A stretch of 64,000 bases of DNA. It comes from Octopus sinensis. Taxonomy: Eukaryota. The stretch covers positions 78,802,001 to 78,866,000 of the forward strand of contig NC_043002.1 in assembly GCF_006345805.1 (NCBI RefSeq). Reading direction: 5' to 3'. Positions 3,762 through 48,792 of the stretch are shown piece after piece (position 1 is the stretch's first letter; each line of letters begins with the position of its first letter). A program made the translations under genes and the position numbers. The notes below the pieces were generated by a model. That model was not told the DNA's origin. It did not search any database and saw nothing but the letters and a program-made list of their open reading frames with translations.

Positions 3762-4010
3762 AAATAAGTAACAAGGATGTTGAGATATTAGTGCATTACG
3801 GCCGTTTCAGGTGGCTCCATTTAAGCAAACGATGCAGGCATTACATCAATTTGAAATACACTGCCTGAAACAGCTGTAATGCACTAATACCTTGACATCC
3901 TTGTTACTTATTTGCTTTTTATTCACCTTACTTCAAGCTGTGCAGATAATACCGGACTGACTTGGTGCCTCAACTTAAATACCTAATTCAACTGAATCTT
4001 AATTATTTCT

Positions 4011-4011
<1 letters not shown>
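3762..4011. mobile_element. Fold-back element in TA microsatellite; related copies at 9551-9772 and 41279-41367
   Basis: Arms of about 50 bp form a hairpin over 3762-3913, with a roughly 100-nt extension on the right. Contains GAAAC-GGCC-GTA / GAAAC-AGCT-GTA, resembling a hammerhead 3' half. Confidence 0.65.
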
Positions 4012-4043
<32 letters not shown>

Positions 4044-4182
4044 ATATATTTGGCCAGACTTTGTGCACTCATTCACAATATACCAGACGCTTACACCTTT
4101 ATCACTACACAATCTGCACTGATCACCTTTTGATTTGTTGTCAATTCTGCATTAAGTGTAACTTGCTCTAAGTGCTTATTAT

Positions 4183-4539
4183 TTATTACCTTCGTCTTAG
4201 CAAAGGCAGAGGTATTGTTTTCAGTTGTGTTTGTTTGTTTGTTTGTCCATGGACAAGATATCTCAAGAACCGCCAGATGGATTTGGATGAAACTTTCAGG
4301 GATGTTTGGCCTCATGACTGGCACAAACTGACTAGATTTTGGGATCGATCCAGTACCAGACAAGAATTCTGGGTTATTTTTCTGTTTTTTTTTACATAAT
4401 TTTTGAGAGCGGTCGGGTTCATTTTTAATATTCTTGTTTGTGAGAGCAGTCGAGTTTATTTCAGATATTCTCTGGTTAATCATTGAGAGAACATTGGTAT
4501 TGCCTTGGTGAAGGTTTGTGCTCTCTGAGTGCTCTTGTT
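4183..4539 (+). mobile_element. Helentron/HINE (DINE-1-like) non-autonomous element
   Basis: TTATTACCTTCG start, subterminal inverted repeat (ACCTTCG.. / GGTGAAGGT), (GTTT)n tract, 3' hairpin GTGCTCTCTGAGTGC. Second copy at 16786-17158. Confidence 0.7.
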
Positions 4540-4601
4540 CTTTTTATTTTAGGTTTTGCTGTAACTCCTGGAATCTTGCATGCCTATGCTATTAGTTCTT
4601 T

Positions 4602-4740
4602 TCAACTATCTAATACTTTCCTGATTATTCTGGCCGTGCCAAGGAGACAAACTTTTTGTAACAGATCTACTGGGTATTCTATTCTGATTTCCTTTATACT
4701 CCACTTGACACTTCTCATATTGTCCCCATGGAACCAACAA
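4602..4740 (-). pseudogene. R4/Dong-like LINE C-terminal remnant (restriction-like endonuclease end)
   Basis: GSMGTI...IKEIRIEYPVDLLQKVCLLGTARIIRKVLDS*. Confidence 0.65.
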
Positions 4741-4816
4741 TAATTGGCACTATCTTCACCTTCTTCATTTTTTCATAGCTGGGTTATTTCATACTTAGGA
4801 GGATTGCATACATATC

Positions 4817-4852
<36 letters not shown>

Positions 4853-4941
4853 CATTATTATCATTATTATCATCATCATCACCATCATCACCATCATCAT
4901 CACCGTCGTCGTCGTCGTCATCGTCGTTGATGTTGTTGTTG

Positions 4942-4985
<44 letters not shown>
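4817..4985. repeat. Compound trinucleotide microsatellite (TAT/CAT/CGT/TGT/TAT)
   Basis: Seen directly. Confidence 0.95.
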
Positions 4986-4987
<2 letters not shown>

Positions 4988-6150
4988 AGTGGTGAGCTGG
5001 CTGAATCGTTAGCACACCAAGCAAAATGCTTAGTGAGCATTTCATCCATTGTTATGTTCTGAATTCAAAATCCACCAAGGTTGACTTTGCCTTTCATCCT
5101 TTTGGGGTCAATAAATTAAGTACCATTGAAACATTGGGGTCAATGTAATCAACTAGTCTCCTCCCCCAAATTTCAGGCCTTGTGCCTATAGTAGAAAGGA
5201 TTATTATTATTATTCTTATAAAGGTGGCAAGCTGGCAAAATCATTAACATGCTACATAAAATGCTTAGCAGTATTTCGCTCATCTTTATGTTCAGAGTTC
5301 AAAATTCTTTTGAGGTCAACTTTGCCTTTCAACTTTTCAAGGTCAATAAAATAAGTGCCAGTTGAATGCTGGGGTTGATATAATTGACTTACCCCCCCCC
5401 CATAACTGGCCTTGTGCCAAAATTTGAAACTACAATTCTCTCCAGTTGAGCATCCCTAATCTTGCAGGCTCATAGGTGTTGGTGGCACATAAAAAGCACC
5501 CATGCTGATGCTGTGTAAAAGCACCCAGTACACACTGTAAAGTTGTTGGTGTTAGGAAGGGCATCCAGCCATAGAAACCATGCCATATCAGACAAGGAGC
5601 CTAAACAGCCCTTCAACTGTTTGGCTCCTGTCAAATCATTCAACCCATGCTGGCATGGAAAATGGATGTTAAATGATGATGATGATGATGATGATGTGTC
5701 AAGATGGCAGAATCATTAGCATGTTAGACAAAATGCCTAGTGGCATTTCTTCTGGTTTTATGTTCTGAGTTCAAATTCTGCCAAGCTCAACATTACCTTT
5801 CACCCTTTAAGGGTTAATGAAATAAAAACCTATTGAGCACTGTGGATTGATGTAATCAACAAGCCTCCTCTCTCAAAATTTCAAGACTTCTGCCTAGAGT
5901 AGAAAAGATTACTATAATAATAAAACTGGCCAGCTGGCAGAATCATTAGCATGCCAGACAAAATGCTTGGTGGAATTTCTTCTAGTTTTACATTTTGAGT
6001 TCAAATTCCAATGAGGTCGACTTTGTCATTATCTTTTTGTGGGTTGATAAAATAAGTACCAGTCAAGTTTTGGGGTCAATGAAATCAACTTACCCACATC
6101 CCACTAAAGTTTAGGCTTTGTATCTATTGTAGAAAAAAATTATTATTATT
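4986..6150 (+). mobile_element. Four tandem copies of SINE family A (about 4986-5212, 5221-5430, 5701-5912, 5922-6150)
   Basis: Head AAGGYGGYGAGCTGGCAGAATCRTTAGC, B-box-like GAGTTCAAATTC, body GACTTTGCCTTTCATCCTTT...AAGTACCAG, (ATT)n tails. Confidence 0.85.
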
Positions 6151-6159
6151 ATTATAATT

Positions 6160-6545
6160 CAGTAGCCTTTCTTTTATTGCATAGTTCTGCTAAGCTCAGT
6201 TCTGTATGCCTTAGATATATAGTTTTTTCGTTTGTTTTGGTTTTTTTGTTTCTACGGTATTGAAAGTACTCTATGCAATATTTGTGTAATACCTGTTGGT
6301 GCTACTTTTCATATGTTACCCATATTCCTAAGTCTTGTAGTTTTGGTTATGCATTTGTCTTCATTCCCAAAGTAGCAATTATTATTGAGATTGTTTCTGC
6401 TTTCATCACCCTCAACACACATCCAAGTTATATCTATTTCTAGATCTTTATATTAGGATAATTTCTCTGTCTCTATGAAAAACACATTATCATATATTAG
6501 GATTGGTACTTCAATTAGGAGGTGCATTCTTTCCTGGTTATTCTT
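6160..6545 (-). pseudogene. R4/Dong-like LINE C-terminal remnant ending at (TAA)n
   Basis: LLIEVPILIYDNVFFIETEKLS*YKDLEIDITWM...AETISIIIATLGM...KVAPTGITQILHRVLSIP*. Confidence 0.7.
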
Positions 6546-6777
6546 ACAGCAATTATTAATGTTATTTACTTTTTTTAATCTCAAAATGCTTTTATCACAA
6601 TCACAATTACAGTTTTGAAATATATCCTTCATATTTAAGAGGAAGTAGAATAAAAATGGAGCGGTTCAAAAAACTATTTCATTGTAGGTTTTCTCTAACA
6701 GATGGAGTTTCAATGAAGTTACTTGATCTGCAAGAAATAACAGTTGAATCTCTCAAATATCATAGGCACAGGCATGG

Positions 6778-7095
6778 CTAAAATGCTACTAAGCATTTAA
6801 GCATTTAGTCTGGCATACTAGCAATTCTGCCAGCTCACCAGCTTTAATAATAATCCTTTCTACTATAGGTACAAGGCCTGAATTTTTTTGCAGTGGGGGA
6901 TGGGGTAAGTGGGGAGGATGGGGTGATAGTTGATTACACCAACCCCCGTATGCAACCGGTACTTATTTTATCAACCCCAAAAGGATGAAAGGCAAAGTCG
7001 ACTTCGGCGGAATTTGAACTCAGAACATGAAAACAGATGAAATACCAGTAAGCGTTTCACCCGGTGTGCTAACAATTCTGCCAGCTAGCCATGTT

Positions 7096-7166
<71 letters not shown>

Positions 7167-7631
7167 CCTTTCTACTGGAGGCAGAAGACCTCAAATTTGT
7201 GGGGAGGGGACTTGTTGATTACATCGACCCCCAGTGTTTCACTGGCACTTAATTTATTGACCCTGAAAAGATAAAACGCAAAATTGACCTTAGCAGAATT
7301 TGAACTCAAAACATGAAGACGGATGAAATGCTGCAAAGCAGTTTGCCCAGCATGCTAACGATTCTGTCAGCTTACTGCCTTAATAAAAATAGTAACAATA
7401 ATAATCCTTTCTAGAAAAGGCACAAGGCCTGGAATTTGAGGGGAGGGAGATAGTTGATCACATCAACCCAGTGCTCAACTGATATTTATTTCATTGAGCC
7501 TGAAAGGATGAAAGGCAAAGTCAACTTCAGCGGTATTTGAACTGAGAATGTAGCAGCAGACAAAATACCGCTAAGCATTTTGACCAGCATACTAACAATT
7601 CTGCCAGCTTGCTGCCTTAATAATAATAATG

Positions 7632-7696
<65 letters not shown>

Positions 7697-7986
7697 TGGC
7701 ACCTGAACAAAACATTTGAGCGAGGTCGTTGCCCGTGCCGCTGGACAGACTCCTGTGCAGGTGGCACGTAAAAAAACACCATTTGAGCATGGCCGTTGCC
7801 AGTGCCACCAGACTGGCCCTTGTGCCGGTGGCACGTAAAAGCACCCACTACACTCTCAGAGTGGTTTGCGTTAGGAAGGGCATCTAGCTGTAGAAACTCT
7901 GCCAGATCAGACTGGAGCCTGGTGCAGCCATCTGGTTCGTCAGTCAAATCGTTCAACCCATGCTAGCATGGAAAGCGGACATTAAA

Positions 7987-8018
<32 letters not shown>

Positions 8019-8228
8019 TTCAAGTTATGGCACCAGGCCAGCTGTGTTGGAGGAGAGGTAAGTCAAATACATCGATCCCAGTGTTCAACTGGTACTTATT
8101 TTATCAACCCCAAAAGGATGAAAGGCAAAGTCAACCTCAGTGGAATCTGAACTCAGAATGTAAGAATAGATGAAATACTTTTAAGCATTTTGCCCACCGT
8201 ACTAACAATTCTGCCAGCTCACCACCTT
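6778..8228 (-). mobile_element. Five copies of SINE family A (about 6778-6845 partial, 6846-7090, 7164-7381, 7403-7618, 8018-8228) separated by (AAT)n
   Basis: Reverse complements of the above. Other copies at 9297-9398, 36779-36995, 45847-46055, 46141-46340 and 57218-57312. Confidence 0.85.
7697..7990 (+). mobile_element. RTE-type 3' UTR fragment inserted in (AAT)n
   Basis: Same 3' UTR family. Further copies at about 5470-5695, 23920-24340, 28470-28870, 32473-32785, 41600-41832 and 43024-43445. Confidence 0.8.
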
Positions 8229-8299
8229 AATAATAATAATAATAATAACAAGGCAACACCAACGTCTTCTCAATGAAAATGACCAGATTAGCAGCTTTA

Positions 8300-8640
8300 T
8301 TCTTTGTGGTTCCTGATGTGGCTTATTAGGTCAATTTTGTCATAAACTCCATGGTTACAGTGGGAGCACATAACTGTAGAAGCAGGACCTGATGGGAACT
8401 CTTACTTTCCATGTAAGTCTTCTCTCTTTAAGCTTCTCCGATCATTTCTGATTCTGAGTGCTGTACTGTGGAGTACTCAGCACTATGCCACAGAAAATGA
8501 TCTTGAGCAAGATATTCTGAAGTAGACCATCCTAAGTTATACTTTTTCAAGATTGTTCTGAGAATGTCTCTATATCTCCTCTTTGATCTATCATGCGAAC
8601 ATGTCCACCTAACTGCAATTGGAGTTTACTTAGGAAAACA
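8300..8640 (-). pseudogene. RTE/BovB-like LINE C-terminal remnant
   Basis: Minus-strand translation LQLQLGGHVRM...RRYRDILRTILKKYNLGWSTSEYLAQDHFLWH resembles QLRWAGHVxRM...KRYKD...LAQDRxxWR. Confidence 0.6.
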
Positions 8641-8685
8641 TTTGACATATTATCTCTCTCTTTCTATATATATATATATATATAT

Positions 8686-9545
8686 CATCATCATCATCGT
8701 TTAACGTCCGTTTTCCATGCTGGCATGGGTTGGACGGTTCGACTGGGGTCTGGGAAGCCAGGAGGCTGCACCAGGCTCCAGTCTGATTTGGCAGTGTTTC
8801 TACAGCTTGATGCCCTTCATAATGCCAACCACTCTGAGAGTGTAGTGGGTGCTTTTTACATGCCACTGGTACAGGGGCCAGAGGGGGTTGGCAGCGACCA
8901 CGATCGGTTGGTGCTTTTTACGTGCCACTAGCACAAGGATCATAACTACAATTTCCATTTGATTTTGGTTTTGATGTACTTGACTCAATAGGTCTCCTCA
9001 AGCACAGCATGTCACCCTATGATCCAAGGTACTTTTGAGTGGGCTGGTTATGCGACACTTGTGTAGGTTACAGCAGTAAACTCATTTTATTTGCCAGGTC
9101 TTCTCAGTCACAGCATATCTCCAGATGTCTCAGTCTTTTGTCATTGCCTCTGTGAGGCCCAATGTTCAAAGGTCATGCTTGACCACCTCATCCCATGTCT
9201 TCCTGGGTCTCTCTCTACCCCGGATTCCTTCCACTGTTTGGGAGTGGCACTTCTTCACACATCTCTCCTCATCCATCTGTAGTATATGACCATACCAAAG
9301 TCAACCTCGGTGGAATTTGAACTCAGAGAGTAACGACAGACGAAATACTGCTAAGCATTTCGCCCGGCATGCTTACGTTTCTGCCAGCTCACCGCCTTCT
9401 CTAAGAGTGCTTACACTCTGTCGTGTGTGCACACTGACATTATGCATCCAGCGGATCATGCTAGCTTCATTTCTTTTGAGCCTATGCATGTCTTCAGCAG
9501 TCACCTCCCATGTTTCACTGCCATGAAGCATGGCAGTTCACACAC
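8686..9545 (-). mobile_element. Same RTE-type LINE 3' fragment, interrupted by a SINE at 9297-9398
   Basis: Reverse-complement similarity to 18920-19766; (CAT)n at the left end. Confidence 0.85.
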
Positions 9546-9550
9546 ATATA

Positions 9551-9772
9551 GCAAATAAGTAACAAGGATGTCATGGTATTAGTGCATTACGGCCGTTTCA
9601 GGTGGCTCCATTTAATTGAACAATGCAAGCAATTACATCAATTTGAAATACAGCGCCATCTTCAGTTACTTATTTGCTTTTTATTCACCTTGCTTTGAGC
9701 CTTGCGGATAATACCAGGCTGGTGTGGTGCATCAATTTAAGTACCTTATCCAACTGAATATTAATTATTTCT
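9551..9772. mobile_element. Second copy of the 3762-4011 family, with most of the right arm deleted
   Basis: Colinear similarity with 3760-4011. Confidence 0.65.
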
Positions 9773-10086
9773 AATATATAATAGATCAGGATTCAAGTGT
9801 ATCATGCACTTAAATGGTAAGGCAGCAGATCAGGTTGAAAGGCAAAATGTGTACACAACAAAATAGAGGAATACATATGTGGGTGCCGAAATACAGGCAG
9901 AAAGATGTTCAGGTTAACTGTACCCAACTGGGTATTTCAATAGTACTGAAGCTAATCAAGAAATGCTTATTGTACTAAATGTACGGTCCTTAACATACTT
10001 TAGATCTACTCAAGGAGCAGGTTCTGAATGAGGTGAATAACAAATATAACAGATGGACAATGTGTCTATTAATATATATATATATT

Positions 10087-10419
10087 GAGACCCCCTTAGG
10101 TCATGAATGACTGTGGGATTGCAACCACAAAGTTACACTCCGAGGCACAAGTCCGGACAAGGTTGTTTATGGAAGACCAGCAGTTGCCCATGCATACCAG
10201 CTTCCCCTCTCCACGCCACTGATGATATCCAAAGGAAAGGCAAAGGCCAATACAGCTTGGCACCAGTGACGTCACAACTCATTTCTACAGCTGAGTGAAC
10301 TGGAGCAATGTAAAATAAAGTGTCTTGCTCAAGAACACAACACACTGTCCGGTCCGAGAATCGAACTTACAACCTCACAATCATAAGCTCAACGCTCTAA
10401 CCACTGAGCCATTTGCCTT
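10087..10419 (-). mobile_element. tRNA-derived SINE family C (copies at 16265-16600 on -, 49379-49930 on +; related head at 25020-25347)
   Basis: Minus-strand head TGGCTCAGTGGTTAGAGCG...GTTCGATTC; the copies are mutually similar. Confidence 0.8.
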
Positions 10420-10441
10420 CATGCACACACACACACACACA

Positions 10442-10516
<75 letters not shown>

Positions 10517-11173
10517 TCTAAGCTTTTATCTTGTTGAAGACTGTACACAACTGGAATATTGATCTGTGTGAGCTGATTGATATAAAGTTTTCTGTTGTTT
10601 AACTGGTATTCCAGGGCTTTGGCCATCCCATGTTTTTAAGCCTCTTGTTACAGAACTGACATCTAAAATATATTTGTTTTCATCTTCAAACAGTTAAATT
10701 GGTTTGGACAAGATTTCATTACCATTGCTAAGGTGTAATAGCAAAAATTAATAAATACAAACAAAAGAATTTCAGCATCCAATTTTGAATATTCATAATT
10801 TTATTGATGAAGAAAATTTAAGTAATCAAATATGAAGCAAATTTAGTAGAGCCTATTCTAAATCCTAACAAGAATTTTCAGACATTTAAAAATGCCACAA
10901 ATTGTAATATTAAAATTATAAATGAACTTCAAGAAAATATCCAAATAGAAATATAATAAAAATCAAAATGAATTTAAAAGCTTTCTATTTAATTGAAAGG
11001 TTATACTGTAAAATTAAGCAAATTTTGGGCCCATTGAAAGGAAAGTTCAAGTTGATAAAAAATGGCTTTACCAAGAATATGTAAATTGTTTCTGAAGCAT
11101 AAAAACTGAGCAGTTGTTTAGCCCATGTCATTTTTATGTCTCTCTCTCTCTCTCCATATAATATATATATATA

Positions 11174-11408
11174 CAGGGTAGCCCAAAAGTAGGTTTACAG
11201 TCATTTAACTATCTCTTTCACATTCATATATTAACAGTTTAGATCTTAATTATAAAAAAATGTGAAACCATTATTCTATGCTAATTTAGTTAATTTTGTC
11301 AAGCTCCCTTCTCAGTTTGTAAGATACAAATTTGAATGTAATAAAATGTTTTAAAAGAAATTTAAAGTACCTACATGATAACTGTAAACCTACTTTTGGG
11401 CCACCCTG
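11174..11408. mobile_element. Tc1/mariner MITE
   Basis: TA TSD; TIR of about 28 bp, CAGGGTRGCCCAAAAGTAGGTTTACAGT. Confidence 0.85.
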
Positions 11409-11670
11409 TATATATATATATACTCTTTTACTCTTTTACTTGTTTCAGTCATTTGTCTGTGGCCATACTGGAGCACCGCCTTTAGTCGAGCAAATCAACC
11501 CCAGGACTTATTCTTTGTAAGCCTTGTACTTATTCTATTGGTCTCTTTTGCCGAACTGCTAAGTTACAGGATCATAAACACATCAGCATCGGTTGTCAAG
11601 CGATGATGGGGTTGGGGAACAAACACAGACACAAACATACACACATACACACACATATATATATACATAT

Positions 11671-12272
11671 GAGACCATAACCTCGTGGCCTATGCCAGGG
11701 GTTTAACCAGCCCACTTATGCATACCTTTCCTTCATTGCACACTAAACTCTGCTTGTGAAGACCTGTTGAGGCAAGTGAAATTGAAATCAAAATAAATAT
11801 CAAATTCGATGACTGGCAACCGTGTTAGTGGAGCGCTAAGAGCACCATCTGAGTGTGATCATTGCCAGAGCAACAAACTGGCTTCAATGCCAGAGGCACG
11901 TAAAAAGCACCTTTCGAGTGTGATCGTTACCTGCGTCACCTTACTGGCACTTGGCTAGTGGCACATGAAAAAACATTCGAGCAAGGTTGTTACCAGTGCT
12001 GCTGGACTGGCTCCTATGCAGGTGGCACATAAAAAGCACCATTTGAGCGTGGCTGTTGCCAGTACCGCCTGACTGGCCCTCATGCCGGTGGCATGTAAAA
12101 GCACCCACCACACTCTCGGAGGGGTTGGCGTTATGAAGGGCATCCAGCTGTAGAAACTCTACCAGATCAGATTGGAGCCTGGTGCAGCCATCTGGTTCGC
12201 CAGACCTCAGTCAAATCGTCCAACCCATGCTAGCATGGAAAGCGGACGTTAAACAATGATGATGATGATGAT
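11671..12272 (+). mobile_element. RTE-type 3' UTR copy nested in the TA tract of a family B SINE
   Basis: SINE sequence resumes at 12273 (CGACGGGCTTCTTTCAG) after the (GAT)n tail. Confidence 0.8.
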
Positions 12273-13439
12273 ATATACGACGGGCTTCTTTCAGTTTCCA
12301 CCTACCAAATCCACTCCCAAGTCTTTGGTCAGTCTGAGGCTATAATGGGGCATAAAGGAATGTTAAAAGTTATTTTGGTTAACACTCTACCAATTCTGCT
12401 ATCCAATATACATTATTAAAATTTTGACCCCTATCATTGGTTGAGAGTCACCAGTTTTGGAGAAAACAATCGACCAAGTCAAACTCAATACTTGTTTGGT
12501 ATTTTATTTTGACCTCAGCTGAATTTGAATTCAGAGTATATATATCGATGTTTCCCTTTATCTTACGTTATTATAAACAATAGAGAGCCCTTTATGTTGT
12601 TGCATGTTCTACTAGAAATAGAAGCTAAATTTATCTAAAATAACTCCCAAATAAGAAAGACACATTAAATAGTGTAATTTAGGATATACTGTAACCGAAA
12701 AAGAAAAAAAAAGAATGTCTTAGGTCACAGGTCTGTCGGACCAAGAGCTAACCTGAGCTAAACAACAGCATAATAACACCTAACAGAAATGCTACAGTAA
12801 TGATATCCAACGTTAGGAGCTAAAATTCCAGGGCGTGCTAGAGATATATGTGAAAAAAATCTAAATCAGACTTCACCTGCCTTTCACTACCAATTAAATA
12901 GGGCTCCTAGTTAATTCGTCTGTCATTAAAGAGATGTTGAACTAACAAAAACTTGGAAAACGCTGAATTACAACATCGAACTACATGTTTTACAATATTT
13001 CTTTCGCTCCCCTGCTTTCTGAGTTACATTTTTTCCAGGGTCAGTTTTGATTTTCATTCCTCCAAGATTGACCAGGGAGACTCAATGTTGCCACGCTGTC
13101 TTTTAGAAATAGCAACCAAATCTCTCCCAAATCAACCTCCATTATCTTAAGCGAAGAATATTTTGGATACTCTAGAATTTTTGTATTTTTAAAAATAAGT
13201 ATAAGATAGTTATATGTGAAATGCTTTTGGTCATAGATCTGCAGAATTTATTTGGCTTGAGCCACATAACTGTAACTGTTTCAACACTATCTACATCTCC
13301 GCTAACAACCATCCCCCATCCACTTTCAACAATATCACCCCGCTCCCTCTCATTTACCGACATCAATTAGTTTCCAAATACTCCATATTTCTGAGGAGGG
13401 AAATTTGAATGTGAGACTTTCAAGCCTTTCTCAAGTATA

Positions 13440-15062: not shown

Positions 15063-15093
<31 letters not shown>

Positions 15094-18120: not shown

Positions 18121-18728
18121 GTTAATTTGAGGATGTTAGATCCACATTAAGGATTATATAATCTCAAAACATTCCACTGGTTAATCACTATCATACAATG
18201 AGAAAGTCTCTGTGATATGTTAAGAATTATTGTAGTAATACATATTAATATTGATAGAAAGAAAATGGAGAAAGATGGATGTATGAATAATTTATTTGTA
18301 TGATATAAAGATGTTGAAATTTAAAAAAATAATAATTCAAATAAATTATAAATTGTAAAGCTCAAAAAGAAAATGGGAGATGCGAAAAAGCCTACATATA
18401 TGTTTCAGTTCTAGCCCCTAGTTGATATGCAGTTCTAAGCATTTGGCTATATGCTAAGAATGGTATAATTTTTAACTATACGGGGCAGAACTTCTTCAGG
18501 GTTATCATGAGCTTATAGAACTAAAGTTAACTTGTTTCTTGGAAGGATGCATACAAAATAGAACTGAAACATATATGCAGATTTTTTCACATCTCCCATT
18601 TTCTTTTTAAGCTTTACAACTTATAATTTATTTGTATTATTATTTTAAAACAAAATTTCAATATCTTTATATCATGCAAATAAATTATTCATATATCCAT
18701 CTTTCTCCATTTTCTTTCTTTCAATATA
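18121..18728. mobile_element. Fold-back Penelope-like element remnant between TA-type microsatellites
   Basis: Inverted arms at about 18249-18413 and 18559-18728, an unpaired extension on the left, and a hammerhead on the minus strand. Confidence 0.7.
18388..18503 (-). ncRNA. Type I hammerhead motif with a long stem II insertion
   Basis: Minus strand reads AACC-CTGAAGA-AGTTCT-GCCCC...GGGGC-T-AGAACT-GAA-ACATATATGT-A-GGCT: 11-bp stem II with one bulge, palindromic stem III, GUA site, imperfect stem I. Confidence 0.7.
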
Positions 18729-18736
18729 TATATATA

Positions 18737-19762
18737 TGGGAAGAAACTAGAAGTAGTTGATAGCTTCCGCTACCTAGGTGACCATGTTAGTAGTGGGGGT
18801 GGATGCTCAGAGAGTGTTACCACTAGAATACGAATAGCCTGGGCAAAGTTTAGAAAGCTCTTCCCCTACTGGCGACAAAGAGTCTCTCATTCAGAGTGAA
18901 AGGTAGATTATACGATGCATGTGTGCGAACTGCCATGCTTCACGGCAGTGAAACATGGGCTGTGACTGCGAAGGACGTGTGTAGGCTTGAAAGAAATGAG
19001 GCTAGCATTATCTGCTGGATGTGTAATGTCAGTGTGCATGCACGACAGAGTGTAAGCGCCCTGGACAAGTTGGACATAAGAAGCATCGGATGTGGTGTGC
19101 AGGAGAGACGTTTGCATTGCTATGGTTATGTACTACAGATGGATGAGGAGAGATGTGTGAAGAAGTGCCATTCTCAAACAGTTGAAGGAATCCGGAGTAG
19201 AGGTAGACCCAGGAAGACATAAGATGAGGTGGTCAAGCATGACCTTCAAACATTGGGCCTCACAGAGGCAATGACAAAAGACCAAGACCTCTGGAGATAT
19301 GCTGCGACTGCGAAGACCCAACAAATGAAGTGATGGCCTGCTGTGATTACCTTGGATTGTAGGGCAACCTGCTGTACTTGAGGAGACCTATTGAGTCAAG
19401 TACATCAACATCAAAATAAAAATCAAATGGGAATTGTACTTGTGATACCCGTGCCAGTGACAGGTAAAAAACACTGTCCAAACATGGCTGATGCCAGCAC
19501 TGCCTTGACTGGCATCCCTGCCAGTGGCATGTAAAAGCACCAACCAATTGTGGACGTTGCCAGCCTCCTCTGGCCCTTGTGCCGGTGGCACGTAAAAAGC
19601 ACGCACTACACTCATGGAGTGGTTGGCATTAGGAAGGGCATCCAGCTGTAGAAACACTGCCAGATCAGACTGGTGCCTGGTGCAGCCTCCTGGCTTCCCA
19701 TGCGCTGGTCGAACCATCCAACCCATGCTAGCATGGAAAACGGACGTTAAACAATGATGATG

Positions 19763-38175: not shown

Positions 38176-38240
38176 CCCCGGTGCTTGGCTGGCTTGTTTC
38201 AAATGTAGATGTTGACGAACTTTTGTGTAAACATGCCTCT

Positions 38241-39138: not shown

Positions 39139-39691
39139 CTGTTAATTTTCGATCCCAATTCATCCCTTGGAACCTTAAAATTCTTTCTGTGGGGGTAAAT
39201 TCCACTGCCCTCCCATCCAGTTGAGAACCATGGTTATAGACACTCCTTCATTTGTGTCTGGATGGGCACATATGTGTTGAGAGAGAGAGAGGGAGGTTCT
39301 ATATCTTATAAAGACTTGTTTTTTCAAAAAATTTGTTTTCATTTGTTCAGTCTATTGTTTAGTTATTCTTGTATTAATCCACACCTACCACTCTTCAGTG
39401 TTTCTTTTTCTATCACATAGTCCCATCTGTAAATAATTAGAAGAATTTACACAGTTGACTGCACATGGAAGAAAAAGAAAAACTATTAAAACTTACCAGA
39501 AGCAGAAACTTGATCTATCTTAATATTGTAATGAACAGAATTCTATGCATACTCATTCACACTGCCACACAAGGAAATACAAATTATATAAACACACACA
39601 CACATACACGCACACACACATGTGATTTCCATATACAACTTGGGTCTTACACATGTAACCACACATGACTTTATTCACTAAATTCATATAC

Positions 39692-39735
<44 letters not shown>

Positions 39736-40334
39736 ATCTCATTCACAAATATTCTTTTTTACTTACTAGCAGATGTTTATACCATCTTTAATATTCAATT
39801 TATTTCCCTTTTTAATTTACATCCACTCCCATATATACTCTTTTTCAGTGGTTTCTATATTCACACGCCATCAAACATACATATCAAAACCTTTTCTCTC
39901 CATCCCTTTAATTCACTTCTCAGATTCTTTCTTTGTTTCACATTTTCCACATCACATCCTATATTCACACACATTTTCTTTCATGATAATTCAACATTAT
40001 AACAAACCATATTAATATCTCCATTCAAATTAGTTTCTTAATTTAGCTGTGAAAGCTATTAACTTAGTATATAACTGTTGATCTTTCTCCCTTAAGTGTT
40101 CATTTGTTGTATTTTGTGTACTGAAGATGAATTAAACTCAATGTCTATGAGTTTTAACCTAGGGCCAATATCCTTGACAAAGGATTACTTAACCGAATTA
40201 GCTTTAGTATTTTACTGGTACAAATTTTAAATACAGTGGAAAGATGAAAGACAATTGAAGACAACTACAGCACCACCTTTAAAAGACAATAGAGGACACA
40301 TGGAAAAGATACCTCAACGATTGTTTCCTATTAA

Positions 40335-40497
40335 AAGATAAAAGAAAAACGGTTTATTAAAATGTTCAAACCTGTTCTTAATGGAAATAATAGCAATAAT
40401 ATAACAACCAGTTAATTATGGGGATTAATAAATATAGACAAGTTACAGTTTGCATGCCTGGCAAACTGTGATGTTTAAGAGCATGTGGATTGATCAA
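40335..40497 (+). pseudogene. Penelope-type GIY-YIG endonuclease C-terminus plus start of the 3' UTR
   Basis: KIKEKRFIKMFKPVLN (40335-40382) fits the E-x3-I-x4-P-x-LN end of GIY-YIG domains. 40454-40497 matches 45494-45537 at 42 of 44 nt. Confidence 0.6.
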
Positions 40498-41367
40498 TTG
40501 ATGTATTGGTATGTTGTTATTGTTGTTTAACCCCAGGATAGCTCTGATACAGCAGACCTATGATGAAAGTGGCTTCTACCGTGATCATCTCAGCTTTGTA
40601 TATTTGTACATTAGTGAGTTTTGATCTCATAACTAAGAACATGATATAATAAAACTTAAGAGAAATTTAAAGTGGTTAAACTATAAATTTTTAAGTCTTT
40701 TGTTGCTGGGCTGTAAGTAGATGTGAAAGTATCTCAATGATGAACCAAGAAGGGGAACTTTACATGGTAGAAGTAGCTACTAAATGTTATTAAAATTACT
40801 GTCACCTTGAAAAGGGATGGACTCATTTACTAATACAGTCCTCTATACATAATGCTTGAGAAAAAGACATTATGATCATAACTAAAATGCCTTTGATCAT
40901 AAATCTGCTCAACCAGGTCTGACCTGGGGCTAAATAACTCCAACAAACCTAGGTGACATCAATCAGCAAGTTATATGTTTTTTTTTGTTTTTTTTTTATC
41001 CTTGTTGCTGTAGTAGTTATGTATCCTCAAGTCAGATTTTTTGAAGCAGACTCCTGATCAGAAGCAGTCAAGCTATGGTCATATTGTTCTTTTCTCTAGT
41101 ATTACATTATCCAGTGTGACCTGCTCTCTTCAAGGTGGTACACTATGTAATTTGAGTGAGATTTGGCTGCTATTTCTTATAGGTTGAATGATTACATAGA
41201 GGCTTCTTTGTTGATCCAGTCAATCCTATGTAGAGTAGCTTCTTGTTGGTCTTATATACACAAATATATATATATATAACTGATGTAATACTTACAGTGT
41301 TTAATAAAATGAAGTAGCATGAAATGATTGTACTACACTACCTTGGATATCCTTGTTGCTTATTTTG

Positions 41368-41410
<43 letters not shown>

Positions 41411-44400
41411 TTGTGTAACTGATAAATTGAAATGTAGTTATGAAGCTTACTTTAAATTATCCTGAGCATCCTTTTAATGTAGTCCTAGAGGCATTATACT
41501 TTAAAGAAAGACAAGTTGACCATAGCTTGAATACCTCCTTGATCACACATCTAGTCAATCAGGGCAAAATAGCAACAGATTGAGTGGTTAATGATTACAT
41601 ACTAGTGTCACGTAAAAAGCCCAGGTGATGGTATCCATGTAAAAAGCACTGGTGATGGTGTCACATAAAAAGCATGCAGTACACTCTGGTTGGTGTTAGA
41701 AGGGACATCCAGCTGTAGAAGCCACAACAAAACAGACAGTGGAACCTGGTGTGGCTCTTGACCTTGCTAGTGCCTGTCAACCTGCCTAACCCATGCTAAC
41801 ATGGAAACATGTTAAATGATGAATATGATGATGAATGTTCTGTTCAATTAACTACATGTTTTACGAGATCTACTCCATTACTCAACATCCATTATCACTT
41901 CTTGCAAGCAACTGAGACTCTGACAAACTTTTCAGTTTTCTTTCAATTTTCATCTTACTGTCTTAAAAGAAGGTAGATCATTTTAGCTAATATAACCCTA
42001 GGTACACAAAAAAGATGAGATGGTCATGGCTGGAATGCTTTTTGATCATAGGTCTGCTCAATTAGACTAACCTATGACTAACTAGTAATAACTGAGGCAC
42101 ATTAGCTAATGAGGGAGCCTCTATGTAGTTGCTTGGCCTGATACAAATAGCAACCACATCTCCCTCAAATCACGTCCTACAGTCTTATGAAAGGTTACTC
42201 TGGAGATAATGTTGTCTAAGATAAACTATTCCACCTGCTTCCCTGTTAGCTAAACCAGTTCTCATACTGAGAAATGTCAAGAACTTACATCACATCTCCC
42301 AAAAATTAGAGAAATTATTTCCCCCTTTCTCATTAATGGGAAGACAAAGCAGAGTTTACATCCATATAATTTTTCTTTCTTTACCATGGCTAAACTTTAA
42401 AATGTTTAAAACCATCTTCATTTTATTAAACAGAGCAATTTGTTTCCTGTCTCTGTAGAGGTGATGGGGTAGATGTGACTATTGAAACACTGATGTTGAC
42501 AAAATTATAACTAATTGAAGAAAGGTTCTCATGCTGTTAATCTCAGTAACAACTTCAAATTCAAAACACACATTATATATTAGTCTAGACAGATCTCTTA
42601 AACTTTTATTTAGGGTAATCACTTGCTTTTAGGTTTAGGTTGTTGACTGTCATATTTAAGTAAACGACCTCCTGACTTGGCAACACACTTCATATTTATT
42701 TAGCTCAATATCTCAAACAATAAAGAAATTAATAAAACAAAATCTTGGTTAAAATATTTAGATTGCTCCCATAGGTCACAAACTTAATATCTTTGTTTTC
42801 TATTAATTACAAATTTGTCAAAACTCTTGTCATCTGGAAGAGACCTACTGCATTACTTACTTTTCAACATATTCCAAAAGTATGTTGATAAATTTATACT
42901 TAGTTTTATTTCATGCCAAGATATCAAAGTTATTGCTTGCTTTATAGTAATGCTCTATAGCTTATTTTTTATTTCCTGTATAAAATGAAAAGTTATATTG
43001 TTTTTTATTTTCATAATCCTTTTCATCATCATCATCAGCTTTCCATGCTGGCATGGGTTAGACAGTTTGACTAGAACTGGTAAGCTGAAGAACTGTGCTA
43101 GGCTCCAATCTGTTTTGGCTTGGTTTCTATGGCTGGATGCTCTTCCTAATGCCAACCACTCCACAGTGTACCAGGTGCCTTTGTGTCACAGGTATGAGTG
43201 CCTTTAATGTGTCACTGGCACGGGTGCACTTTACATGTCACTGGCATGGGTGCCTTCAATGCACAAATGGCACGAGTATATTTTATGTATCACAGGCACA
43301 GGTGCCTTCAATACATCACCAGCACAGGTACCGTCAACGCATCACTGGCACAGGTGGCCTTCAATGCACCACCAGCACTGGCTATGATTATGTTTTCAAT
43401 CAACTTGATGTCTTCTCAAACAGCAAATTGCCAAAAGTCTCAGTCATTTTAATAATAATATTTGTTCCATACAGAATTTGTTCTATATAGAATTTGGTCT
43501 AACCGAAGATTCAAGTGAAATAAGAACACAGTGTGGAAGCCACTTTCTTTGACTAGTCAACAGTCCAAAGCATGAGTCACTCGCTTGGTTTGTTCATTAT
43601 TTGATTCCCTTTGTTGTTCATATAATTTGAGAAATACTGCAGAAATGCACAAAATTGCATAAAAGTGGAATATTTTGATATAGACTATGGACGTATGGGC
43701 ATAGCTATGTGGGTAAGAAGTTTCCTTTAACCAACATAAACTTAGAGGCCTAGTTCCTCTGTTTAACATATTGGGCAAATATCTTCTGTTGCCTCAGGCC
43801 AACTAATGCTTTGGGAGTGAAATTGTATGGCAGAAAGTGCATAGAGGCTTCATATCACTTCAAATCTGTTTTCCATGCTGAGATAGGTTGGATGATTCAA
43901 CAGGATCTAATGAGTCAGAGACCCACAACTTGATCAAATGTCTGTTCTGGCATGGTTTCTTTTTTTTTTTTTTTGACTGGATGCTTTCCTAACACTAACC
44001 ACTTTACAAAGTCTATGTGTGTGTGTGTTTGTGTGTGCACATGTGCATGCATGTGTATCTGAACAAGGAATTTATCATCTCTACTTCTTGTATGAGATTG
44101 TCTGAGCAAAAATATGTATAAAAGGCGACATCCTGTTTACTTTCCCAATGAACTTTGTATCTTGTAACTCTACACTCTCAGAGTAGTTGTCTAAAAACTC
44201 CCTAACTTATAAAACAGGAAAAGGTTGGTGACAGGAAAAGCATATGGCTGGCACTACAGTAAAATGTGAAAATGAACAAACAAAATAATCTAATTAGAAA
44301 ATGATATTCATTGTAAGCATAAATTGATGAAATTACTGAAAATCTGTTAATATCTATTCCAAAGTTAACTTTATATATCTATATTTGTTTTGTTTTTTAA

Positions 44401-45144
44401 TAAAGGATAATTTAATTTAATTTGATTTATTGAAATTAGAACATTTTGCTAACATTTCAATATTAACAACACCCAGTTATAACTTTCAAACAAATCAGAT
44501 TTAAAATATTATGTAATAATATCATTTTACTCTAAAAAATCTTTTATTAAAATGTTTTCTTATATCACTAAGTAGAAATAAATCCATATCCATTAATAGC
44601 TAAAATATTTTATCTAATCCCTCTTTTCAACTAGCAAGCCATAAAATACATAAACAAAATTAACTCTTTCCTTTCTTTTCTATTTCTAATATGAAAGAGC
44701 TGCAATGGTTGAGTGATAAAGTTGTTGACTCACATGTCATCAATTTGTTTCTAGTCAATGGTCCTATGCTTTGACCTTAGAAAGAGCACTGTATACTCTC
44801 CCAGCAACCTTAGCTGCATGAGATTATTCAGCAAGAGTTTTGCAACAAACTGATGGGATATTTGCAAAAGTTTGGTAGTCTATAGTTCTAAGAAGTTCTT
44901 TCTGTAAATTCTTAGCCCTCTCTTTTACTCTCTTTTACTTGTTTCAGTCATTTGACTGCAGCCATGCAGGAACACTGCCTTTAGTTGAGCAAATCGCCCC
45001 CAGGACTTATTCTTTGTAAGCCTAGTACTTATTCTATTGGTCTCTTTTGCCGAACCGCTAAGTTACGGTGATGTAAACACACCAGCATTTGTTGTCAAGC
45101 GATGTTGGGTGGGTGGGGGGACAAACACAGACACACAAACATAT

Positions 45145-45208
<64 letters not shown>

Positions 45209-45341
45209 GACTGATAGGAGGTTTCAGATATATATATATATATTGTTTTGAATTTGTGTGAATGTGTATAGAATAATATATCAGTTGAAGAAAATTAAAA
45301 CATTGTCTGGTTTTCACATTTTTTATTATGGTATTTTAACA

Positions 45342-45379
45342 AAATTAGCGCTTTCATACATAGTGTACTCATCAGATTT
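45342..45379 (-). ncRNA. Minimal type I hammerhead ribozyme motif
   Basis: Minus strand reads AAAT-CTGATGA-GTAC(actat)GTAT-GAAA-GCGC-TA-ATTT: stem I AAAT/ATTT, stem II, palindromic GCGC loop, predicted cleavage after CUA. Confidence 0.8.
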
Positions 45380-45623
45380 CAAATGTGTTTAACTAACAGT
45401 TGAGCTCTTGACATCTCTTAAAATGCTCCAACCGGCTGAATTTTTAGAATATCTTTTTGATCAATCCGCATGCTCTTAAACATCAAAACCGGTATGCCTG
45501 GCAAACCATGATGTTTAAGAGCATGTGGATTGATCAAAAAGGTATTCTAAAAATTCAGCTGGTTGGAGCATTCTAAGAAGTACTAAAGTTGTCAAGAACT
45601 CAACTGTCAGCTAAATATATTTG

Positions 45624-45661
45624 AAATCAGATGAGTACACTATGTATGAAAGTGCTAATTT
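45624..45661 (+). ncRNA. Mutated hammerhead copy
   Basis: AAAT-CAGATGA-GTAC(actat)GTAT-GAAA-GTGC-TA-ATTT. The core U4>A change probably inactivates it. Confidence 0.55.
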
Positions 45662-46377
45662 TGTTAAAAATACCATAATAAAAACATGAAAACCAGACTA
45701 TGTTTTAACTTTATTCAACTGATATGTGTGTGTTTGTGTGTGTGTGATTTGAGTTCTATTTTCTTGTTTGTATCACCAAATCTGTTCATAATAAAATATG
45801 TTGATAACAACAGCCCGATGCTTAATGACAAAAATAATCACCAGAGATTGGCTTCAAATTTTGGCACAAGGCTAGCAATTTCTGGGGAGTGAGTAGGTCA
45901 GTAACATCAACCCCAGTGCTCAACTGATACTTATTTTATCGACCCCCAAAAGAATGAAAGGCGAAGCCAACCTCAGTGAAATTTGAACTCAGGACATAGA
46001 TATGCTGCTAAGCATTTTGCTCAGCATGTTAATGATTCTGCCAGCTCACCATCTTACAATCACCAGATATTAAAAGAAAGAAGCTATTTCTATTTACCAC
46101 TTTCTGTACCTCAAATCTTCAATTCTTATTATGAAATCAGGGTTGAGAATTGGTAGAATTGCCAGAGTGTCAGGAAGGAATGACTTACAGTATTTGTTCT
46201 GGTTTTGCTATGTTCTGAATTCATATCCTGTAGAGATCAATGTTGCCTTTTGCCAACTCCAGTATTGATAAAATAAAATACCAGTCAAGTACTGGTTTAA
46301 TAAACTAACCTCAAAATGTTTGATCTTGTGCTTATGTCATTAATAATCATTATTAAGAAATCAGACTTATTAATATT

Positions 46378-46658
46378 TCTTTTTTAGATTTGGTTTGCAA
46401 GATTCTTTATATGAGTTCGTGTGTTGAAGTATATTCTGTTGTCTGGGGAGAGTCATTCTCTTTTAGTGCCTTATTATTTAACACACTCACCGGTAAAATT
46501 TTGTTGCGTCTTGCAACCTTTTCAATAGTCAAAACTATTGAAAAGGTTGCAAGACGCAACGAAAATTTTAGGAAAATAAAAATAAGTGGAAATTTTACCA
46601 GTGAGTGTGCTAAATAATAAGGCACTAAAAGAGAATGACTCTCCCCAGACACAACAGA
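46378..46658. mobile_element. Fold-back element with a one-sided extension and target duplication
   Basis: Direct repeat CAGACTTATTAATATT at 46362-46377 and 46655-46670. Inverted arms 46435-46658. Perfect 27-bp inner stem 46503-46529/46534-46560. Confidence 0.75.
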
Positions 46659-48122
46659 CTTATTAATATTCTTATATTACCTATAATGTATTTGTATGTT
46701 TTTTTATTAGTTTTGATATAATGGATATTTCATGCCATTCATTTCAATAAATTTTGCCATCTAATATTTACTATCAATTTTTCCTGTATTTCATTTTATA
46801 TGAAAGTAAACATTGTAGAATAGATAAATTCTTGGTGAGTAATCCCACAAATAGGTATGAATATCTGGTTGCTTTGCTATCAGGTTATTTAAGCTTTGAT
46901 CTTAGTGTGCAGCACCTTTGGCAACTGCCTTTAACTATTAGCTTCAGTTAACCAAAACTTATCAATGGAATTTGGTAGACAGAAACTTTGCTAAAATTCA
47001 TCGTATATGTGTGTTTGTAAGGTGCAGACATGAGTATGGGCTACAGATACAGGTGTGGCTATCTGGTTAAGAAACTTGCTTCCCAATTATATGGTATTGG
47101 GTTCAGTCCCACTGTACAGCACCTTAGGCAACTGAGTTTCTGGTCTGAAGATAACTGCCCCACTCATTTTCTTCCACTATTCTTGTGAGGACCTGGAAAG
47201 GATCCCTTAATTTCTTTTTGGTTTTAAAAAATAAAAATTATGCTCATGTAAGAAATTAATCTCAAACAATTCAGGTTATATTTCATCTTATACCTTATAA
47301 TTCTAAAAATCTGTATAACTTTTTATAAATCATTGGGTCGAGAATCTTTTGACCTTTTTATCACAATCAGTTCGACTTCAAGTGGAAATGCTGCCTATTT
47401 TTAGTTATCTTGAACTTAAAGGTCAAAGAAAATGCCATTTATAAGAATTGCATTATTTTTACCTTTTGTCTTGCACCTTTGCTATGTTTTCTCTTATGTT
47501 ACCAATGTTATTTTGATATTCTGGTAACTCACTTCACCATGAAAAAATTTTGTGCTGTACTAAATCCAAAGTCACTTATGTTCATTTCATATCCATTAAT
47601 CAATATCTCAATGAAAAGTTATATTTATACAGGTTCATGTTTTTACTTGCCCTTTCATATTTCTTTCTCATCTGTCTGTTTACAACTGTCTTAGTTCTAT
47701 TTCTGTTTAGAAATAAACTAAGGAGTCTTCAATTTATAGTTTTCTAGGTGCAGATATGGATGTGTGGTTAATAAGCATGTGATTCAAGGTTCAATCTCAT
47801 TGTGAAGACCTTTAGGTGTGTGTGTTCTAGCAAAGCTTCCTGGTTGACAAACACTTTGAAATTTGGTAGACAAAGAGAATAACTGTGCTGAAACCCATTG
47901 TTTCACTCACAGTATATAACATTCATGCATACATATATACATATATATATATATTAATAATAGTAATAGTAACTTCTATGTATAATTTCAAAATTAGGCA
48001 ACAAATTTATAGACTACACAGTACAAAAATAGAGTAGCTCTATATTTAAGAGATGAGGAATTATGTACATTATTTACATTATTTACATTTGACGGATATT
48101 TGTCCTCATCTTGTTTGTTGTT

Positions 48123-48168
48123 AATACAACATTTCAGCTGATATACCCTCCAGCCTTCATCAGGTGTC
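48123..48168 (-). ncRNA. Hammerhead motif, inverted and partly decayed copy
   Basis: Minus strand reads GACAC-CTGATGA-A-GGCTG(gagggtatat)CAGCT-GAAAT-GTT-GTATT. Confidence 0.6.
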
Positions 48169-48448
48169 TTGGGGAAATTTCGAACCTGGGTTCTCATTCC
48201 TAAGGTATTTTTCAATGCTGTTATTATTATTATTATTATCATTATTCAGGTCACTGCCTGAATAGTAGCCTGTGCTCTTAACCACTACGCCATATGCTCG
48301 TGGGCATATGGCATAGTGGTTAAGAGCACGGGCTACTAACCCCAAGATTCTGAGTTCGATTCCAGACAGTGACCTGAATAATAATAATAATAATAATAAC
48401 ATCGAAAAATACCTTAGGAATGAGAACTCAGGTTTGAAATTTCCCCAA

Positions 48449-48494
48449 GACACCTGATGAAGGCTAGAAGGTATATCAGCTGAAACGTTGTGTT
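48449..48494 (+). ncRNA. Minimal type I hammerhead ribozyme motif
   Basis: GACAC-CTGATGA-A-GGCT(agaaggtatatc)AGCT-GAAAC-GTT-GTGTT: stem I GACAC/GTGTT, stem II, palindromic ACGT stem III, predicted cleavage after GUU. Confidence 0.75.
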
Positions 48495-48561
48495 AACAAC
48501 AAACAAAATGAGGACAAATATCTGTCAATTGTAAATAATGTAAATAATGAAAAATAGAGTA

Positions 48562-48792
48562 ATAATAAATCTCTGAGCGAGGTATAAACAGTAGCTGCAC
48601 GATATCGTGAAGTATATTTGCCACTTAAATGTGGCTAACCCCTAAGGGTAGATGCTACTGTAGCTTGTAGCATCCACCCTTAGGGGTTAGCCACAAGCTA
48701 CAGTAGCACCCACCCTTAGGGGTTAGCCACAAGCTACAGTAGCACCCACCCTTAGGCGGTTAGCCACATTTAAGTGGCAAATATTCTTCACG
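48562..48792. mobile_element. Fold-back element with an internal 36-bp tandem triplication and a 44-nt one-sided extension
   Basis: Left arm starts at 48606 (CGTGAAGTATATTTGCCACTTAAATGTGGCTAACC) and its inverse ends at 48792. The 36-bp unit starts at 48667, 48703 and 48739. Flanked by AAAAATAGAGTA at 48550-48561 and 48793-48804. Confidence 0.75.

What the first reader, a model, noticed from the sequence alone, without database searches (positions are those of the whole stretch)
3762..48792. Shared 'palindrome plus 3' tail' architecture across six sequence-unrelated families
Seen: 3762-4011 (and 9551-9772), 18121-18728, 45243-45725, 46378-46658, 48037-48549 and 48562-48792 are all fold-backs with an unpaired extension on one side only. 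In the four with a full or half hammerhead, the extension lies 3' of the ribozyme-sense arm each time. MITE TIRs would instead reach both termini. Inference: these are products of one mechanism (PLE reverse transcription with an inverted second copy), forming a class of ribozyme-bearing elements that repeat annotators would probably label MITE or unknown.
Basis: partly seen in the sequence, partly recalled or inferred. Interest (0 to 1): 0.75.

Follow-up and report, generated by a model that had tools for sequence, protein, structure and literature searches.

The report
Penelope retrotransposon head-to-head insertion scars
Six unrelated mirror-image DNA pieces with a one-sided tail are the known insertion scars of Penelope-type jumping genes (four traced to the element's own protein gene, two likely copied by a helper), and their many copies in this genome indicate that each scar is likely built from two separately primed DNA copies joined head to head.

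Summary
Observation confirmed. All six families are head-to-head fold-backs with a family-conserved one-sided tail (147 of 147 inverted pairs head-to-head). This is the published Penelope-like element (PLE) signature (inverted 5'-truncated copy plus tail), not a new class. Four families lead to RT/GIY-YIG genes: A and B Hydra-type, C Neptune-type, E Poseidon-type. D runs on into a longer element without an RT found; F is a tandem 350-bp retrozyme-like unit. All six carry a hammerhead motif, sense to the tail. Departures from print: tails of about 55, 90 and 117 nt (published 30-40), stem II of 58 and 86 nt in A and B, and a tRNA-Arg-like head inside E's terminal repeat. Mechanism: neither arm can be a copy of the other, so two target-primed cDNAs are likely. 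In family D, 237 of 245 insertions have both arms from one subfamily and 8 are mixed (about 0.01 expected by mutation, 85 if arms were independent): usually one source RNA, sometimes two, or later gene conversion. This scan already noted the tRNA head, the long stems and the two-copy idea on other DNA of this genome.

The parts
3760..4011 (+). Family A insertion 1 (Hydra-type PLE 3' end): inverted tail-less arm about 3760-3861, tailed arm 3864-4011, tail about 3922-4011, in (TA)n; 3' half of hammerhead at 3867-3883 (+) and 3808-3792 (-)
   Evidence: family link to RT-thumb/endonuclease
9550..9772 (+). Family A insertion 2: inverted arm 9550-9663 holding a complete long-stem hammerhead motif on the - strand (core 9665-9659, GAAA half 9599-9583); tailed arm 9665-9772 pairs over 14 bp only
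18121..18737 (-). Family B insertion (Hydra-type PLE 3' end): tail 18121-18237 (117 nt), tailed arm to 18562 with hammerhead core at 18499-18493 and GAAA at 18406 (86-nt stem II), inverted arm 18559-18737, in (TA)n
   Evidence: RT and endonuclease in L222
45243..45725 (-). Family C insertion (Neptune-type PLE 3' end): tail 45243-45277 (35 nt), minimal hammerhead 45375-45341, inverted arm 45498-45725 with a mutated core
46378..46658 (-). Family D insertion (about 205-nt unit with fixed 5' end): tail 46378-46434 (57 nt), U3-A8 variant minimal hammerhead motif complete in the inverted arm (46535-46571, +), ATG at 46456 (-) opening a frame through the tail
46362..46377 (.). Target-site duplication of D, left copy (16 bp with junction overlap; right copy 46655-46670)
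48037..48549 (-). Family E insertion (terminal repeat of a Poseidon-type PLE): tail 48037-48067 (31 nt), minimal hammerheads 48163-48126 (-) and 48454-48491 (+), ATG at 48197 (-) and 48420 (+)
48302..48363 (+). tRNA-Arg-like head of family E at the palindrome centre (A box 48309-48319, B box 48352-48363); mirror copy on the - strand has the A box (48292-48282) and lacks the B box
48562..48792 (-). Family F insertion (piece of a tandem 345-350-bp hammerhead unit): tail 48562-48604 (43 nt); hammerhead not included in this copy
48025..48036 (.). 12-bp target-site duplication present three times (48025-48036, 48550-48561, 48793-48804), framing E and F, which point the same way

Best explanation
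All six are insertion scars of Penelope-like retrotransposons (four traced to RT/GIY-YIG genes, two likely copied in trans), each likely formed when the element's enzyme nicks both target strands about 12 bases apart, primes one DNA copy from each nick at one of two fixed start sites inside the element's RNA, and the two incomplete copies join head to head. The tail is then the RNA stretch between the two start sites, which gives a family-fixed length on one arm only. Shown here: head-to-head geometry, fixed outer ends, variable inner ends, target duplications around the whole unit, hammerhead motifs and coding links. Taken from print: two internal start sites and both-strand nicking (PAc in vitro). 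Inferred: the two-cDNA join, and that short D and E copies with a fixed 5' end are copies of the front end of the RNA.
For: 147 of 147 inverted pairs are head-to-head, and most differ by one family-fixed tail. Non-microsatellite duplications of 8-16 bp flank the whole unit in 16 of 30 D, 16 of 24 E and 8 of 24 F palindromes, against 12 of 870, 0 of 552 and 4 of 552 mismatched-flank controls; in sets chosen on the tail alone, 19 of 28 D and 16 of 29 E copies have a tail-less inverted arm. Coding links: C upstream is GIY-YIG (PF01541, E 6e-7) and L235 shows inverted tail-less arm, RT-EN frame and tailed end; B in L222; A in L478; E in L487 and L490. In 24 of 49 D palindromes the tail-less arm holds more than 10 nt of 5' sequence missing from the tailed arm, which in turn holds the tail, so neither arm is a copy of the other. 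Tail ends run on into shared sequence in 4 of 100 E and 2 of 100 D listed matches, so the tail end lies inside a longer element. PMC11167929 reports both-strand cutting and extension and equates the tail with the gap between two RT start sites.
Against: No reaction was observed; the order of events is read from old, mutated copies. No RT gene was found for D or F. For A only the RT thumb and endonuclease were seen. Pfam named no family in the E frame; its assignment rests on BLAST to other PLE proteins and motifs read by eye. Four F palindromes carry the tail on both arms. A, B and C sit in (TA)n, so no duplication can be measured (0 of 19, 0 of 7, 0 of 6). Most loci were best hits to the window copies and are not a random sample.
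Confidence: 0.8

Rival explanations
1. Same elements, but the inverted arm arises by self-priming (snap-back) on the first strand or on an antisense RNA, with the tail left by endonuclease trimming, as proposed for rotifer Penelopes.
For: Short natural palindromes sit at the junction in D and E, as PMC3846280 notes for its elements. 237 of 245 D insertions have arms of one subfamily, as a copy of one strand would give. A snap-back loop could explain extra inner sequence on one arm.
Against: A target-primed tail-less strand cannot template the tail on the other arm; either arm can be the longer one; 8 of 245 D insertions have arms of different subfamilies at two linked sites, against about 0.01 expected from the single-site rate of 2 in about 372 arms.
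Confidence: 0.1
2. The six form a distinct class of short non-autonomous ribozyme elements with a palindromic master copy that moves as a unit.
For: D and E have fixed 5' ends and thousands of short copies; F is non-coding and tandem; no RT was tied to D or F.
Against: Arm lengths differ from copy to copy (spans 154-940 in A, 97-585 in F), single-arm copies are common, and A, B, C and E continue into their own RT/endonuclease frames. The palindrome is made anew at each insertion. The idea survives only for F, and perhaps D, as known non-autonomous PLE derivatives.
Confidence: 0.07
3. They are MITEs or other DNA-transposon derivatives with long terminal inverted repeats.
For: Short, non-coding, inverted repeats, flanked by duplications, some in TA.
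Against: Inverted repeats stop 30-117 nt short of one terminus; duplications vary from 8 to 16 bp; hammerhead motifs and RT/GIY-YIG links.
Confidence: 0.02

Closest known systems
EN+ Penelope-like element insertions with inverted pLTR and tail (PMC8557442 passages, section 11, supplement part 2; PMC3846280 passages and Discussion)
   Same: Inverted 5'-truncated copy next to the tailed copy, tail at one end, 8-10-bp duplications, small palindromes at the junction.
   Different: Published tails are 30-40 nt; here D has about 55, A about 90 and B about 117. The self-priming model of PMC3846280 fits the arm contents and the mixed arms poorly.
PAc, Poseidon of Anolis carolinensis (PMC11167929, parts 1-2 of 4 read)
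   Same: Frame starts at the hammerhead and runs through the tail (E: 52-55 codons, D: 28); tail ends are internal to a longer element; predicted dimer and both-strand nicking fit the two-cDNA reading.
   Different: E's terminal repeat begins with a tRNA-Arg-like head; the parts of the paper that I read do not explain the inverted arm.
Hydra-clade PLEs, including Hydra-1_Obim (PMC8557442 section 11, File S1 and S2)
   Same: A and B endonucleases have CxCX5C, CxxC and CxH; (TA)n targets; hammerhead near the 3' end.
   Different: Stem II regions of 58 and 86 nt against about 25 nt at most in the 26 Hydra rows of File S2; A has a CCGA core; 3' untranslated regions of 1.4 kb or more.
Neptune-type PLEs (clade features from PMC8557442)
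   Same: C has a CX4CxxC linker before a GIY-YIG with the CCHH pattern, minimal hammerhead, 35-nt tail, TA targets.
   Different: Nothing notable.
Metazoan non-LTR retrozymes (PMC7229834 passages; bioRxiv 10.64898/2026.07.22.740005 passages and part 1 of 5)
   Same: F: tandem 345-350-bp units, each with a type I hammerhead, no coding frame found.
   Different: F also inserts as inverted arm plus 43-nt tail with duplications, direct structural evidence of PLE mobilisation; the terms tail and palindrome do not occur in the preprint's text. Circular RNA not shown here.
Minimal PLE hammerheads (PMC4209133, parts 1-2 of 4 read)
   Same: Extra base before stem II, palindromic stem III, U3-A8 variant (D), pairs on opposite strands 100-700 bp apart.
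   Different: Long stem II of A and B.

Membership tests
EN+ Penelope-like elements | Single frame with PLE RT and GIY-YIG endonuclease continuous with the repeat | tested here: met
   C. B. E: (Pfam silent). A: RT thumb and endonuclease only.
EN+ Penelope-like elements | Same coding link for families D and F | tested here: inconclusive
   D continues past the tail in 2 of 100 listed matches, no RT reached; F continues only into its next monomer.
EN+ Penelope-like elements | Inverted 5'-truncated copy, head-to-head, with one-sided tail | tested here: met
   147 of 147 pairs in all six families.
EN+ Penelope-like elements | Type I hammerhead motif in the terminal repeat, sense to the frame | tested here: met
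   Core, stems and cleavage triplet in family consensus of all six; motif and predicted fold only.
EN+ Penelope-like elements | Hammerhead self-cleavage | not testable with these tools
   No sharp read ends in standard RNA-seq of a related species, which cannot settle it.
Hydra clade (A, B) | CxCX5C linker, CxxC and CxH around the E and N residues, no CCHH, (TA)n targets | tested here: met
   Translations; flanks.
Hydra clade (A, B) | RWK and DKT motifs; placement in an RT tree | not tested
   No copy with the N-terminal part was fetched.
Hydra clade (A, B) | Canonical (short stem II) hammerhead | tested here: not met
   58 and 86 nt between core halves against File S2.
Neptune type (C) | CX2-5CxxC linker and CCHH GIY-YIG at the C terminus | tested here: met
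   L006 frame; no tree built.
Penelope/Poseidon type (E) | C-terminal GIY-YIG without the upstream zinc-finger linker; frame begins at the hammerhead | tested here: met
   L487, L490, L492 translations, read by eye; no tree built.
tRNA SINE (E) | tRNA-derived head with A and B boxes | tested here: met
   50 of 75 aligned columns match the genome's tRNA-Arg(ACG); score 66 against at most 53 in 5000 shuffles. Other tRNA types were not compared; ARAGORN and Rfam do not call the head.
tRNA SINE (E) | Non-coding unit separate from its partner element | tested here: not met
   The head lies inside the terminal repeat of the coding element: 7 of 66 heads follow its 3' untranslated region, and the tail runs on into the RT frame.
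Pol III transcription of the whole E element | No T-run terminators in the sense strand | tested here: inconclusive
   No run of 5 or more T in 3.6 kb of three copies, but not below codon-shuffle expectation, and 2 of 6 other PLE frames also have none.
Non-LTR retrozyme (F) | Tandem 170-400-nt units each with a type I hammerhead, no protein | tested here: met
   L160/L231 hold three units of about 350 bp.
Non-LTR retrozyme (F) | Expressed as circular RNA | not testable with these tools
   Only standard RNA-seq of a related species was available.
MITE | Inverted repeats at both termini, constant length, fixed short duplication | tested here: not met

The most novel reading that the evidence does not exclude
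PLE integration is a double target-primed reaction by a dimeric RT-endonuclease that makes two overlapping cDNAs, usually from one RNA or one source locus but in roughly a tenth of events from two different RNA molecules; tail length (about 30, 35, 43, 55, 90, 117 nt) is a family-specific ruler between the two start sites; and one protein-coding Poseidon-type family is transcribed from a captured tRNA-Arg Pol III promoter, flooding the genome with SINE-like front-end copies.
Probability: 0.35. Interest if true: 0.65.

Novelty: new variant of a known kind. Interest (0 to 1): 0.4.

Why it matters
The shared architecture is ordinary for PLEs, so the proposed new class falls. How PLEs form their inverted structures is called an open question in PMC8557442 and is left unvalidated in PMC11167929. 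Six families in one genome give a comparative set, and the mixed-arm insertions of family D give a genomic test and a clear bench prediction (two tagged RNAs, one insertion). The long tails, long-stem hammerheads and tRNA-headed terminal repeat widen the described range and explain why standard ribozyme and repeat searches miss these elements (Rfam found no hammerhead in the window).

Tried and rejected
Rfam scans found no hammerhead or tRNA, only microsatellite-driven miRNA hits. My first descriptor capped stem II at 60 nt and required a CTGA core, so it missed A, B, D and E. I first read E as a stand-alone tRNA SINE because by eye none of 29 tail-selected copies seemed to extend beyond the head; that was wrong, since L183, L188 and L426 have the coding element's 3' end upstream. 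PLE frames next to B and A copies in L221, L222 and L226 downstream of the tail are other families in the same TA run. The intact Neptune-type and Hydra-type frames fetched do not share ends with A, B, D, E or F. A Hydra-type endonuclease 1.3 kb behind D in L489 has its own inverted arm and was not counted as D's gene. Homologue searches with the B endonuclease piece and the E peptide gave no RT-linked hit. A loose read end at E's tail had no match in G000. No RNA holder was listed for E; reads of a related species cover E and F on both strands without sharp ends, which says nothing on promoter or cleavage. E has only CpG-type variable sites, so its arms could not be typed. The core-variant tally printed for A picked the wrong position and is not used. 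Paper searches for a tRNA- or Pol III-headed PLE and for twin priming or two-RNA models in PLEs returned no paper whose listing describes either; those hits were seen as listings only, except PMC6962438 (passages). Subscription journals and Repbase/Dfam were not searched, and the bioRxiv supplement was not seen.
Full report
Setting. The window lies in G000, a 2.72-Gb AT-rich animal genome. The host is likely an octopus: the E peptide matches a protein that a source names as from Octopus at 89%. I call the six families A (3760-4011, 9550-9772), B (18121-18737), C (45243-45725), D (46378-46658), E (48037-48549) and F (48562-48792).

Observation. The fold-backs and one-sided extensions are there and the six are unrelated in sequence. 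Own-genome searches gave 541 to 8045 first-look candidates per family, of which 40 were scored and 30 fetched each time. The extensions are family sequence with sharp ends: about 90 nt in A, 117 in B, 35 in C, 55 in D, 30 in E, 43 in F. In C, 15 of 23 copies end at the tail end and 8 at the tail-less end. All 147 inverted pairs in 215 distinct loci are head-to-head. D, E and F have 8-16-bp duplications around the whole unit (16 of 30, 16 of 24, 8 of 24; controls about 1% or less), while A, B and C sit in (TA)n. In sets picked on the tail alone, 19 of 28 D and 16 of 29 E copies have a tail-less inverted arm, 11 and 12 of them with a duplication of 8 bp or more. The palindrome is common, not obligatory.

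Ribozymes. Family consensus and folding show a type I hammerhead motif upstream of the tail in all six. C and E are minimal. D has the U3-A8 core (38 of 42 arms) described in PMC4209133. F has a longer stem I. A and B have 58- and 86-nt stem II hairpins, against about 25 nt at most in the 26 Hydra rows of File S2 of PMC8557442. Activity is untested.

Parents. C: copies extend upstream into a GIY-YIG frame whose relatives carry RVT_1 and GIY-YIG; L235 shows inverted tail-less arm, frameshifted RT-EN and tailed end; the CX4CxxC linker makes it Neptune-type. B: walking upstream reaches an endonuclease with CxCX5C, CxxC and CxH, and L222 holds RT and endonuclease pieces matching a Hydra-type protein (E 4e-9 and 3e-12). 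A: the same walk reaches RT thumb and endonuclease in L478 (E 2e-13 and 6e-9). E: an ATG 34 nt before the hammerhead core opens a frame through the tail; 4 of 100 listed tail ends share a continuation; L487 runs from head through tail into RT and endonuclease pieces and a second repeat; L490 holds a 551-aa frame similar to PLE RTs (E 7e-41 and 8e-31) followed by a short untranslated stretch, the head, the hammerhead and the tail-less end. Pfam named nothing in it, and none of the 150 best endonuclease matches has a longer open frame. D: a unit of about 205 nt with a fixed 5' end, a 28-codon frame through the tail, a shared run-on in 2 of 100 listed matches, no RT reached. F: tandem units of about 350 bp, no frame found.

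The tRNA head of E. The centre of E aligns to the genome's tRNA-Arg(ACG) gene (50 of 75 columns; score 66, shuffles at most 53). Of 66 heads held, 7 follow the coding element's 3' end (4 of these in loci fetched for their frame), 24 follow an inverted head and 35 follow other sequence. So the head belongs to the terminal repeat, and many short copies begin at it, as expected if it is the promoter and reverse transcription starts at the first tail site near the RNA's 5' end (inference). T-run depletion in the frame was not significant.

Mechanism. PMC11167929 shows in vitro that a PLE protein cuts and extends both strands and starts at two internal sites that bound the tail. PMC3846280 explains the inversion by self-priming on an antisense template. 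Here the tailed arm has sequence that the other lacks (the tail), and in 24 of 49 D palindromes the tail-less arm has more than 10 nt of 5' sequence that the tailed arm lacks. Two target-primed cDNAs joined at their incomplete ends explain both. The arms overlap on the RNA, so one RNA is read twice or two RNAs are used. D has two subfamilies marked by two linked sites. Exact-match patterns with a 140-170-nt gap count 51 and 186 insertions with matching arms and 8 with mixed arms. Independent arms would give about 85 mixed; double point mutation about 0.01, from 2 single-site changes in about 372 arms. In the held loci 4 of 44 fully typed insertions are mixed, and one of them, L127, has a 10-bp duplication. 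So arms usually share a source and sometimes do not. Gene conversion after insertion is not excluded; the other 7 mixed matches were seen only as 80-base listings.

E and F share one 12-bp duplication present three times and point the same way. F is closer to its family reference (97%) than E (85-90%), so F likely inserted later at exactly one copy of E's duplication. This is one case.

Comparison. The arrangement is in print as typical of PLEs: an inverted 5'-truncated copy and a 30-40-bp tail at one end (PMC8557442; PMC3846280), and paired minimal hammerheads on opposite strands (PMC4209133). A Hydra family from Octopus is listed in that supplement. Tandem hammerhead units are described as non-autonomous PLE derivatives. 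What I did not find in print in my searches: tails of 55-117 nt, stem II of 58-86 nt in Hydra elements, a tRNA-headed terminal repeat, and a count of mixed arms. Earlier unchecked notes of this scan already report the tRNA head, the long stems and a two-copies-from-one-RNA reading on other DNA of this genome; the first of these changed my reading of E, and I then tested it.

Verdict. Real and well explained: known kind, with variants worth recording. Interest 0.4.

Noticed in passing
window 40334-40497: Another fragment of family C (84% to the reference), without hammerhead or tail.
   Followed up: no
window 3617-3677: A 61-nt stretch 77% like part of F lies in a different repeat next to A that ends in a short hairpin and CTAG, a Helitron hallmark by recall; F may share a captured piece with it.
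   Followed up: no
window 48812-48890: A weak 79-nt inverted repeat (76%) right after the third copy of the E/F duplication; unexplained.
   Followed up: no
G000:C1:86768061-86768138: An E tail is joined directly to the hammerhead region of D, suggesting a template jump between families or nested insertion.
   Followed up: no
L236-L245, L409-L415, L269-L272, L433-L462: Several young PLE families with intact frames (Neptune-type 775-784 aa, Hydra-type about 727 aa); the Hydra-type L440 has a 3' region of about 1.1 kb ending in TA, and L269 has a U3-A8 hammerhead motif.
   Followed up: partly
G000:C2:3121912-3157893: A tandem array of about 90 matches to the tRNA-Arg(ACG) loop pattern, mostly 206 bp apart.
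   Followed up: no
P0005: A host gene model begins with 36 residues of the E frame joined to a cysteine-rich receptor-like protein; exonisation or an annotation error.
   Followed up: no
L230:4690-5340: A D insertion with three tandem antisense units of about 175 bp before the tailed arm; the units join inside the tail, not at its end.
   Followed up: no
L221, L222, L226: Unrelated PLE families are stacked in the same TA run, directly behind A or B tails.
   Followed up: partly
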